Shown: one piece after another, positions 35,621 to 37,734 of the stretch | Layout: each line of letters starts with the position of its first letter | How positions within the stretch are numbered: position 1 is the first letter of the stretch | DNA from: Eledone cirrhosa | Taxonomy: Eukaryota | Assembly: GCA_964016885.1 (NCBI GenBank) | Contig: OZ024754.1 | Coordinates: forward strand, 23,684,001 to 23,748,000 | DNA length: 64,000 nt | Reading direction: 5' to 3' | Program-made: the position numbers and the translations under genes | Notes under the pieces: generated by a model | The model's database searches: none | Seen by the model: only the letters and a program-made list of their open reading frames with translations | What the model was told of the DNA's origin: nothing

Positions 35621-36097
35621 ATGTAACCTATTTGCAGCGCCGCAGCTCCATTATTATCATATATATATATATATGTATATATATATATATATATATATAT
35701 ATATATATATATATATATATATATATATATATATATATATATATATATATATATATATATATATAAGTTGGAATAGAATGAAACGAAATTTCATTTCTCA
35801 CTCTTAGTACGGCACTTACTTAAATGTAAGTATGTATGTATACGTACATACATATATGTATACAGACGTACAGTAGCATGTATATATATATATATATATA
35901 TATATATATATATATATATATATATATATATATATATATATATACATACAGGTACACATATATATATGTACGTATCAGTTTAGCGGACGTTTATTATAAC
36001 GCTCGCTTTGTCCGTTTGTAAACAAACTGACAGCTTGATTTATGCCGTACGGTGTTAAAGCAACCACGTCACCTTTTTGTTCAACACTGACACAGGA

Positions 36098-36140
36098 ACG
36101 ATGTACTAGTTTCAAGCTTGTTAGCTATCGTCAGCACCGT
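36098..36140 (-). ncRNA. Minimal type I hammerhead ribozyme (family D)
   Basis: ACGGTG-CTGACGA-tAGCT aaca AGCTt-GAA-ACTAGT-A^CATCGT. Confidence 0.88.
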
Positions 36141-36605
36141 ATACCCTTCTGCCAGATGGTTGAACGTTCGAAAGTATATACTTTCCTTATGAAAATTAAC
36201 GGCTGAGCAGCCTAATTTGCATATCGAGTGAGTTCAGTCGGCCAGGTGCACCGAAAACGATAAGTTGGAATAGAATGAAACGAAATTTGATTTCTCACGC
36301 TTAGTACGGCACTTACTTAAATGTAAGTATGTATGTATACGAACATACATATATGTATACAGACGTACAGTAGCATGTATATATATATATATATATATAT
36401 ATATATATATATATATATATATATATATATATATATATATATATATATATATACATACAGGTACACATATATATATGTACGTATCAGTTTAGCGGACGTT
36501 TATTATAACACTCGCTTTGTCCGTTTGTAAACAAACTGACAGCCTGATATATGCCGTACGGTGTTAAGGCAACACGTCACCTTTTTATTCAACACTGACA
36601 CAGGA

Positions 36606-36648
36606 AGGATGTACTAGTTTCAAGCTTGTTAGCTATCGTCAGCACCGT
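36606..36648 (-). ncRNA. Minimal type I hammerhead ribozyme (family D)
   Basis: Same motif with one distal stem I mismatch. Confidence 0.85.
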
Positions 36649-37253
36649 ATACCCTTCTGCCAGATGGTTGAACGTTCGAAAGTATATACTTTCTTTATGA
36701 AAATTAACGGCTGAGCAGGCTAATTTCCATATCGAGTGAGTTCAGTCGGCCAGGCGCACCGAAACGATAAGTTGGCATAAATCAGGCTGTCAGTTTGTTT
36801 ACAAACGGACAAAGCGAGCGTTATAATAAACGTCCGCTAAACTGATACGTATATATATGTGTACCTGTATGTATATATATATATATATATATATATATAT
36901 ATATATATATATATATATATATATATATATTATATATATATATATATATATATATATATATATATATATATATATATATATATATATATATATATATATA
37001 TATATATATATATATATATATATATATATATATATACATGCTACTGTACGTCTGTATACATACATACTTACATTTAAGTAAGTGCCGTAATAAGAGTGAG
37101 AAATGAAATTTTGTTTCATTCTATTCCAACTTATCGTTTTCAGTGCGCCTGGCCGACTGAACTCACTCGATATGCAAATTATGCTGCTCAGCCGTTAATT
37201 TTCATAAGGAAAGTATATACTTTCGAACGTTCAACCATCTGGCAGGAGGGTAT

Positions 37254-37296
37254 ACGGTGCTGACGATAGCTAACAAGCTTGAAACTAGTACATCGT
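37254..37296 (+). ncRNA. Minimal type I hammerhead ribozyme (family D)
   Basis: Core CTGACGA at 37260-37266, GAAA at 37281-37284, GUA cleavage after 37290. Confidence 0.88.
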
Positions 37297-37734
37297 TCCT
37301 GTGTCAGTGTTGAACAAAAAGGTGACGTGGTTGCCTTAACACCGTACGGCATAAATGAGGCTGTCAGTTTGTTTACAAACGGACAAAGCGAGCGTTATAA
37401 TAAACGTCCGCTAAACTGATACGTACATATATATATATGTCTACCTGTATGTATATATATATATATATATATATATATATATGCTACTGTACATCTGTAT
37501 AGATATATGTATGTACGTATACATACATACTTACATATATATGTATATATATATATATATATATATATATATATATATATATATGTATATGTATATGTAT
37601 ATATATATATATATATATATATATATATATATATATATATATATATATATATATATATATATATATATATATATATATATATATATATATGTATGTATAT
37701 ATATATATATATATATATATATATATATATATAT

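What the first reader, a model, noticed from the sequence alone, without database searches (positions are those of the whole stretch)
35763..37536. Retrozyme-like concatemer: ~500-nt non-coding unit with a minimal hammerhead and an internal (UA)n tract, arranged head-to-head
Seen: two full units plus 9 bp carry the ribozyme on the minus strand. The strand switches at a GG microhomology (36774-36775), then ~1.5 units carry it on the plus strand. Each full unit has one canonical-core HHR (CUGACGA/GAAA, GUA site) whose stem III is only the palindrome ACUAGU. Cleavage-to-cleavage length is 508 nt (36611 to 36104). Both outer 3' ends stop at an AT microhomology and run into (TA)n. Established: minimal type I HHRs with palindromic stem III cleave as dimers and mark PLEs and metazoan non-LTR retrozymes that yield circular RNAs. 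Inference: this is a non-autonomous element copied by rolling-circle-like reverse transcription of a circular monomer, using the RT/GIY-YIG of the adjacent PLE. Unusually, the unit carries its own (TA)n target sequence, which would fold into a long dsRNA hairpin and provide a self-insertion site.
Basis: partly seen in the sequence, partly recalled or inferred. Interest (0 to 1): 0.88.

Follow-up and report, generated by a model that had tools for sequence, protein, structure and literature searches.

The report
Ribozyme repeat pasted by Penelope enzyme
This is one insertion of a very abundant protein-free repeat with a predicted self-cutting RNA motif, laid into TA repeats in the same two-armed pattern as this genome's Penelope-type jumping genes and likely copied by their enzyme from a circular RNA: a new family of a known kind.

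Summary
The unit (432 nt plus a variable TA spacer) belongs to a family with 28,333 hammerhead motifs genome-wide (control 3) and at least two subfamilies, whose differences preserve a predicted RNA fold. It fits animal non-LTR retrozymes, though cleavage and circular RNA are untested.

Head-to-head insertions end at two fixed sites about 60 nt apart, one of each per insertion (39 of 40). An abundant Hydra-clade Penelope-like family in this genome shows the same pattern (9 of 10). Arms run through ribozyme cut sites without stopping or scars, and the units of a locus mostly share one haplotype. That favours a circular template but does not prove it.

No RNA run was listed. The scan has already reported similar families on other DNA of this and other genomes.

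The parts
35763..36775 (-). Minus arm: two units plus 9 bp. Its 3' end at 35763 is the 'long' fixed end (unit position 118).
36774..37536 (+). Plus arm: about 1.4 units. Its 3' end at 37536 is the 'short' fixed end (unit position 57).
36774..36775 (.). GG microhomology joining the 5' ends of the two arms (5 of 6 bases match if extended)
36098..36140 (-). Type I hammerhead motif 1: predicted cut between 36104 and 36103, 6-bp stem I, U·U-closed stem II, palindromic stem III
36606..36648 (-). Type I hammerhead motif 2: predicted cut between 36612 and 36611, one mismatch in stem I
37254..37296 (+). Type I hammerhead motif 3: predicted cut after 37290
36104..36611 (-). Predicted cut-to-cut monomer, 508 nt (432 nt plus 76-nt TA spacer); folds at z -7.8
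35881..35944 (.). Internal TA spacer 1 (64 nt)
36378..36453 (.). Internal TA spacer 2 (76 nt)
36872..37036 (.). Internal TA spacer 3 (about 165 nt, interrupted once)
37452..37482 (.). Internal TA spacer 4 (about 30 nt)
35763..35823 (-). 'Tail': the roughly 60 nt between the two fixed ends, present at the left end only
35659..35762 (.). Left (TA)n target tract
37537..37734 (.). Right (TA)n target tract
38990..40880 (-). Context, not part of the element: broken coding region of a Hydra-clade Penelope-like element (its terminal repeats lie at about 37734-38575 and 41221-41649)

Best explanation
The locus is one insertion of a protein-free hammerhead repeat (a non-LTR retrozyme), likely reverse-transcribed from a circular RNA monomer by a Penelope-like reverse transcriptase/GIY-YIG enzyme borrowed in trans, probably of the Hydra clade. 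SHOWN: a unit of about 430 nt plus a TA spacer, tens of thousands of motif copies, insertion into (TA)n, two arms joined at their 5' ends, one short and one long fixed 3' end per insertion, and the same end pattern in an autonomous Hydra family of this genome. INFERRED: (1) tandem units are transcribed and cut at GUA by hammerheads working as dimers; (2) monomers are ligated to circles; (3) the endonuclease nicks both strands of a (TA)n tract; (4) each nick primes reverse transcription inside the RNA using 2-4 nt of AT homology, one at the short site and one at the long site; (5) both enzymes run round the same or an identical circle for a fraction of a unit up to many units; (6) the two cDNA ends are joined by microhomology. 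The TA spacer then changes length by slippage. PLE-type mobilisation alone I put at about 0.9 and the circular template at about 0.65.
For: Ends. A-type arms stop at 50-60 or 108-118 and B-type arms at 53 or 112, nearly all at AT before (TA)n. Of 69 head-to-head rows, 42 could be classified at both ends: 41 short+long, 1 short+short, 0 long+long. After dropping two dependent rows this is 39 of 40, p 4e-11. The autonomous family has two ends 88 nt apart, and 9 of 10 classifiable loci (of 20) pair short with long. It has RWR and CxCX5C and lacks CCHH, as described for (TA)n-inserting Hydra (PMC8557442). A one-sided tail is described as a PLE signature and was traced to two internal RT start sites in vitro (PMC11167929). 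Template. 5' ends do not pile up at the cut (5 of 114 within 10 nt, 5.7 expected), 1 of 298 units has an indel at the cut, and arms cross up to 20 cut sites. Units of a locus, both arms included, mostly share a haplotype; divergence within an arm / between arms / between loci is 3.4 / 3.5 / 4.9% in A and 0.9 / 1.1 / 3.3% in B. In L064 two rare alleles stand in 9 of 9 units on both arms. RNA-level selection. With the fold taken from one subfamily and tested on the other, 8-9 pairs break against 21-26 expected, and 6-8 double changes keep pairing against about 1.3 expected (p at most 0.001). The hammerhead varies at 2 of 31 columns against 99 of 420 elsewhere (p 0.025), and one stem I pair swaps G·U to U·G.
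Against: No cleavage, circle or transcript was observed. Only 5 of 24 multi-unit loci had rare alleles in all units, and the window locus had none; older arrays carry alleles in subsets of units, which points to local duplication after insertion. L010 repeats a unit together with a foreign insert, and L096 and L099 are locally duplicated. In the Poseidon system, ribozyme cleavage was not needed and uncut RNA was the main substrate. Li et al. saw cleavage in 1 of 9 dimers tested and propose local amplification. U·U at the base of stem II goes with weak monomer activity in axolotl. The free fold of two motifs did not give the double hammerhead. No parent or partner with shared sequence was found, and Naiad and Neptune also favour (TA)n, so the clade of the helper is not fixed.
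Confidence: 0.6

Rival explanations
1. Same helper enzyme, but the template is a linear, uncut multimer transcribed from a uniform genomic array; long arrays grow afterwards by local duplication. The hammerhead may cut rarely or at another stage.
For: Uncut RNA was the dominant substrate for Poseidon in vitro. Local duplications and subset-shared alleles are present. 168 of 213 arms cross at most one cut site. Li et al. propose local amplification.
Against: Very young loci already hold 4-6 identical units on each of two inverted arms with intact ends (L064, L094). Many haplotypes are each uniform across a whole locus, which needs repeated monomer bottlenecks. The hammerhead and the base pairs that close the circle are conserved between subfamilies.
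Confidence: 0.28
2. The enzyme copies cleaved linear monomers and jumps from the 5' end of one to the 3' end of the next, with no covalent circle.
For: It gives the same tandem sequence and keeps a role for cleavage (inference).
Against: No excess of 5' ends at the cut (5 of 114, 5.7 expected) and 1 of 298 units with an indel there. Haplotypes rarely switch within an arm.
Confidence: 0.06
3. The unit is a piece of the terminal repeat of the neighbouring Penelope-like element, or was carried along with it in cis.
For: The neighbour starts about 200 bp away in the same TA tract. In Xenopus, retrozymes match PLE terminal repeats. Both hammerheads close stem II with U·U.
Against: No BLAST match between the unit and the neighbour. 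The neighbour's hammerhead has another core, stem II and stem III, and an 88-nt tail. 94 of 111 retrozyme loci have no repeat of that family within 1 kb.
Confidence: 0.03
4. A satellite or fold-back structure made at the DNA level, or an assembly artefact around TA repeats.
For: TA tracts are unstable and hard to assemble (general knowledge). The locus itself was not checked with long reads.
Against: Fixed, paired ends at 39 of 40 loci. The window's units differ from each other by 3% with 19 private changes. Raw reads of two runs from another study show 734 and 703 head-to-tail joints, with TA letters between the sides in the listed examples, and many strand-switch joints.
Confidence: 0.03

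Closest known systems
Animal non-LTR retrozymes (Cervera and de la Pena 2020, PMC7229834; parts 2-4 of 6 and passages read, supplement not readable)
   Same: ORF-less tandem units, each with a type I hammerhead; low GC; strongly self-paired predicted monomer; thousands of copies; PLEs proposed as helpers. The axolotl HHR_Amex2 also has U·U at the base of stem II and cuts better as a dimer.
   Different: The unit is at or above the upper end of the sizes given there (150-450 bp). Head-to-head arms, two fixed ends and an internal TA spacer are not in the parts read ('inverted' 0 hits). Circular RNA was shown there and is untested here.
Non-LTR retrozymes as non-autonomous PLE sequences (Li, Clavereau, Pollet 2026, bioRxiv 10.64898/2026.07.22.740005; parts 1-3 of 5 read)
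   Same: Co-occurrence with PLEs; monomers, dimers and multimers; proposed use of PLE enzymes.
   Different: Their link rests on homology with PLE terminal repeats, and none was found here. Here the link is the integration footprint ('tail' and 'target site' 0 hits in their text).
Hydra-clade Penelope-like elements (Craig et al. 2021, PMC8557442; abstract, sections 3, 6, 11, 15 and passages read)
   Same: Insertion into (TA)n and hammerheads (Hydra section). Inverted 5'-truncated copy and tail at one end only (given for PLEs in general).
   Different: No ORF; the whole unit repeats. The tail is about 60 nt against 30-40 bp given for PLEs.
Poseidon PAc of Anolis (Frangieh et al. 2024, PMC11167929; parts 1-2 of 4 read)
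   Same: Reverse transcription starts at two internal sites that define the tail; both strands of AT-rich DNA are nicked and extended; ends do not fall at the ribozyme cut.
   Different: In vitro the start site did not differ between strands, whereas here each insertion uses one of each site. PAc is autonomous.
Non-autonomous Chlamys elements such as MRC1 (passage in PMC8557442)
   Same: Non-autonomous PLE passengers, often in multicopy head-to-tail insertions.
   Different: They resemble their autonomous partners at the 3' end, and most Chlamys lack canonical hammerheads.
Minimal PLE hammerheads (Cervera and de la Pena 2014, PMC4209133; parts 1-2 of 4 read)
   Same: Type I motif with a tiny palindromic stem III, built to act as a dimer; low activity in vitro.
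   Different: Those have a long stem II and a conserved G10.1-C11.1 pair. This one has a 6-bp stem I, a 4-bp stem II and U·U at 10.1/11.1.

Membership tests
Animal non-LTR retrozyme | Tandem ORF-less units of a few hundred bp, each with a type I hammerhead | tested here: met
   (112 cut-to-cut monomers of 400-580 nt)
Animal non-LTR retrozyme | Dispersed, high copy number; monomers to multimers | tested here: met
Animal non-LTR retrozyme | No LTR-retrotransposon terminal structure | tested here: met
   Arms end at fixed internal sites in (TA)n and are 5'-truncated. PBS and PPT were not searched separately.
Animal non-LTR retrozyme | Highly self-paired monomer | tested here: met
   z -6 to -9 as a circle; fold preserved between subfamilies
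Animal non-LTR retrozyme | Self-cleavage as monomer or dimer | not testable with these tools
   Needs in vitro transcription
Animal non-LTR retrozyme | Expressed as linear and circular monomer RNA | not testable with these tools
   No RNA holder listed, which is no evidence either way
Retrozyme derived from a PLE terminal repeat (Li et al.) | Sequence homology to the pLTR of a PLE in the same genome | tested here: inconclusive
   None in the window, in five or more other Hydra-like families, or in 111 loci. No sister hammerhead family seen in the 100 listed of 508 variants. The genome was only sampled.
Type I hammerhead ribozyme | Core CUGANGA, GAAA, NUH with stems I-III | tested here: met
   stem I shows a G·U to U·G swap between subfamilies
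Type I hammerhead ribozyme | G10.1-C11.1 closing pair | tested here: not met
   U·U; the same is reported for an active axolotl retrozyme
Type I hammerhead ribozyme | Match to an Rfam hammerhead model | tested here: not met
PLE-type insertion | Inverted 5'-truncated copy next to the 5' end | tested here: met
   63 head-to-head junctions in 111 loci
PLE-type insertion | Tail at one end only, from two fixed 3' ends | tested here: met
   39 of 40
PLE-type insertion | Target-site duplication | tested here: inconclusive
   Hidden by (TA)n on both sides
Autonomous PLE | RT and GIY-YIG ORF | tested here: not met
   The only long frames in the element run through TA repeats; no unit runs into a PLE ORF at a fixed junction
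Hydra clade (neighbouring element's family) | C-terminal GIY-YIG, RWK-like motif, DKT, CxCX5C linker, no CCHH, (TA)n target | tested here: met
   By motif in a 713-aa intact copy, with DKT seen in the window copy. No tree was built and Pfam gave no hit.

The most novel reading that the evidence does not exclude
A viroid-like circular RNA under selection for its fold, with no surviving parent element in the genome, has acquired a pair of start sites for Hydra-type enzymes. A dimeric enzyme primes both nicked strands of a TA tract on the same circle, always once at each site, and rolls round it. The genome would then hold thousands of records of rolling-circle target-primed reverse transcription and of an obligatory asymmetry in Penelope integration.
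Probability: 0.35. Interest if true: 0.7.

Novelty: new member of a known kind. Interest (0 to 1): 0.42.

Why it matters
How animal retrozymes move has been proposed from co-occurrence and homology with Penelope-like elements. Here the insertions themselves carry the PLE footprint, and it can be counted. The one-short-one-long rule gives a sharp prediction for PLE biochemistry, where the one in vitro study read here saw no strand difference. The near-identical young subfamily B offers a small, ORF-free substrate with mapped start sites for testing rolling-circle copying. The class, the proposed cycle and the one-sided tail are all in print, so this is firmer evidence rather than a new kind of system.

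Tried and rejected
Rfam gave no hammerhead hit; the microRNA and snoRNA hits at loose E-values are TA-hairpin look-alikes far below gathering scores.

Parent search found nothing: BLAST of the unit against the window and against other Hydra-like families, 40 extra loci chosen partly as single hits, and a search for the same stem II with another stem III (508 hits; the 100 listed are single-base variants of the family).

Self-insertion into the spacer: 0 of 349 unit ends. The test would miss single-arm inserts in the same orientation.

The idea that both arms break at the same place in the unit was not supported: 8 of 57 junctions within 20 nt, 5.9 expected, p 0.23.

The free co-fold of two motifs did not give the double hammerhead. 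Such folds rarely do (own knowledge), so it is uninformative.

No RNA holder listed.

A GAGUG-like word about 20 nt past the short end occurs in the unit and in several PLE tails. It was seen by eye, not tested, and chance is plausible.

Papers searched for a prior description of head-to-head retrozymes with fixed ends. None was found in the listings. The supplement of PMC7229834 and bioRxiv supplements could not be seen and may show such structures.

Full report
Observation. The sequence is as described. A 432-nt unit alternates with TA tracts. The minus arm runs from unit position 110 twice round to 118 and ends at 35763. The plus arm runs from 331 round to 57 and ends at 37536. The arms share GG at 36774-36775. 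Three motifs read stem I, CUGACGA, stem II, GAAACUAGUA, stem I, with cuts predicted after 36612, 36104 and 37290. Stem III is two base pairs and a UA loop. Stem II is four pairs closed by U·U. One copy has a stem I mismatch. Rfam does not recognise the motif.

Family. The 3.0-Gb genome holds 2,690 exact copies of the 32-nt core (control 0) and 28,333 relaxed motifs (control 3). I analysed 111 loci including the window: the best DNA matches and the first listed places on contig C1. The sample is therefore not random, and L067 and L068 are halves of one array. Subfamily A (the window's) has spacers of median 50 nt; subfamily B is about 15% divergent with spacers of median 14 nt. Raw reads of two runs from another study show head-to-tail joints (734 and 703 reads) and many strand switches. 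That confirms the family's architecture but not this locus. The window's own units differ by 3% with 19 private changes, unlike an assembly duplication.

Ends. Outer 3' ends fall at two sites, 50-60 and 108-118 in A and 53 and 112 in B, nearly always at AT before (TA)n. Of 69 head-to-head rows, 27 could not be classified automatically (the window among them, which is long+short by eye). Of the other 42, 41 had one short and one long end and one had two short ends. Dropping two dependent rows gives 39 of 40, p 4e-11. Inner 5' ends are scattered: of 57 junctions kept from 63, 40 overlap by 0-4 nt, 6 by more, and 11 have a gap.

The neighbour. The element at 38990-40880 (-) is 5'-truncated and broken. 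Its family gave 43,363 first-look candidates, with intact 713-aa frames, and carries the motifs given for the Hydra clade (PMC8557442). Pfam is silent and no tree was built. The family has two fixed ends 88 nt apart, and 9 of 10 classifiable loci out of 20 pair them short with long, though three of those rest on short inverted pieces. It shares no sequence with the unit. Several other TA-inserting hammerhead families were seen in the fetched loci; the Hydra-like ones tested do not match the unit. No parent was found. The helper is therefore inferred from the footprint, and Naiad or Neptune enzymes are not excluded.

Template. 5' ends are not enriched at the cut (5 of 114, 5.7 expected), 1 of 298 units has an indel there, and 45 of 213 arms cross two or more cut sites, up to 20. 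The template was thus continuous across the cut: a circle or an uncut multimer. Units within a locus mostly share one haplotype across both arms, while haplotypes differ among loci. In 5 of 24 multi-unit loci rare alleles stand in every unit, on both arms in three of them. Young loci such as L064 and L094 already have 4-6 identical units per arm. This favours a monomer circle. Against it, older arrays share alleles among subsets of units, and local duplications are evident in L010, L096 and L099. Uncut RNA was the main substrate of Poseidon in vitro (PMC11167929). Uniform source arrays would also give uniform daughters.

RNA-level selection. Subfamily consensuses fold as circles at z -6 to -9 (the TA hairpin contributes). 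Folding one subfamily and testing the other gave 8 and 9 broken pairs against 21 and 26 expected, and 6 and 8 double changes against 1.2 and 1.4. The null ignores clustering of changes. The hammerhead varies at 2 of 31 columns against 99 of 420 elsewhere. The short end lies in a hairpin loop in both subfamilies; the long end is unpaired in A and ambiguous in B.

The TA spacer. The youngest A-like loci have near-constant spacers (L190: 40, 38, 38, 38, 38 nt). Spread grows with divergence (rho 0.60, p 0.004, 21 loci) while the mean does not. The RNA therefore carried the spacer, and present lengths reflect later slippage. It is not where arms end. It received foreign inserts in 6 of 151 A rows and 0 of 198 B rows, and no own-family end.

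Comparison. The element meets the sequence-level definition of animal non-LTR retrozymes (PMC7229834; bioRxiv 10.64898/2026.07.22.740005). Cleavage and circular RNA are untested. Rolling-circle copying by PLE enzymes was already proposed (PMC4209133), and the one-sided tail is known for PLEs. I found no account of retrozymes with paired fixed ends in searches, but could not see the supplements. Earlier notes of this scan describe similar families here and in other genomes; they are not independent support.

Verdict. Real, a new family of a known kind, with unusually clear evidence for PLE-type integration and moderate evidence for a circular template. Interest 0.42.

Noticed in passing
window 34973-35658: A second head-to-head insertion in the same TA tract: arms 90% alike, the right arm about 40 nt longer (a tail). 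It carries GAAA upstream of CUGAUGAG, possibly the rearranged hammerhead noted elsewhere in the scan.
   Followed up: partly
window 38411-38464 (+): The neighbouring Hydra family's hammerhead-like motif has a CAGAAGA core (U4 changed to A), a U·U-closed stem II and a CUU site; 60 such hits in 47 fetched loci. Activity is doubtful and untested.
   Followed up: partly
L185:280-2530 and L188 near 5950: An unrelated 310-bp hammerhead repeat, also head-to-head and ending in (TA)n; its stem II resembles that of a TA-inserting family whose motif also occurs at window 24117-24126.
   Followed up: partly
window 24100-24150: Two overlapping, inverted hammerhead motifs of another TA-inserting family, with ends 11 and 93 nt past the cut.
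   Followed up: partly
window 29250-30650: Remnant of another Penelope-like family, with a hammerhead at 29387 (-) and a decayed endonuclease region at 30369-30635 (-).
   Followed up: partly
window 11990-12900 and 12892-13470 (-): Another truncated copy of the neighbouring Hydra family (endonuclease end and terminal repeat).
   Followed up: partly
L010:1002-1446 and L019:1919-2363: A 444-nt foreign insert in the internal TA spacer is repeated with the unit (917-bp period): local duplication, or a circle that carried cargo.
   Followed up: no
window 32741-33299, 51685-52308, 58258-59726: C2H2 zinc-finger arrays; the last is an open frame of 457 aa.
   Followed up: no
window 3267-5513 (-) and 46644-49266 (+): Reverse transcriptase, RNase H and integrase domains of LTR-retrotransposon type (Pfam).
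   Followed up: no
window 8205-9962 (+): Two in-frame stretches separated by one stop that look like a hAT-type transposase (from recall; no Pfam hit).
   Followed up: no
window 30859-32300 (+) and 20565-21573 (+): LINE-type reverse transcriptase remnants.
   Followed up: no
window 40900-41100: A short TA-flanked element with a long internal palindrome; a close relative sits in the internal spacer of the unit at L161.
   Followed up: no
run X4, record 9: A contig from a run labelled as another organism holds the whole unit with 23 differences, so the family may extend to related species.
   Followed up: partly
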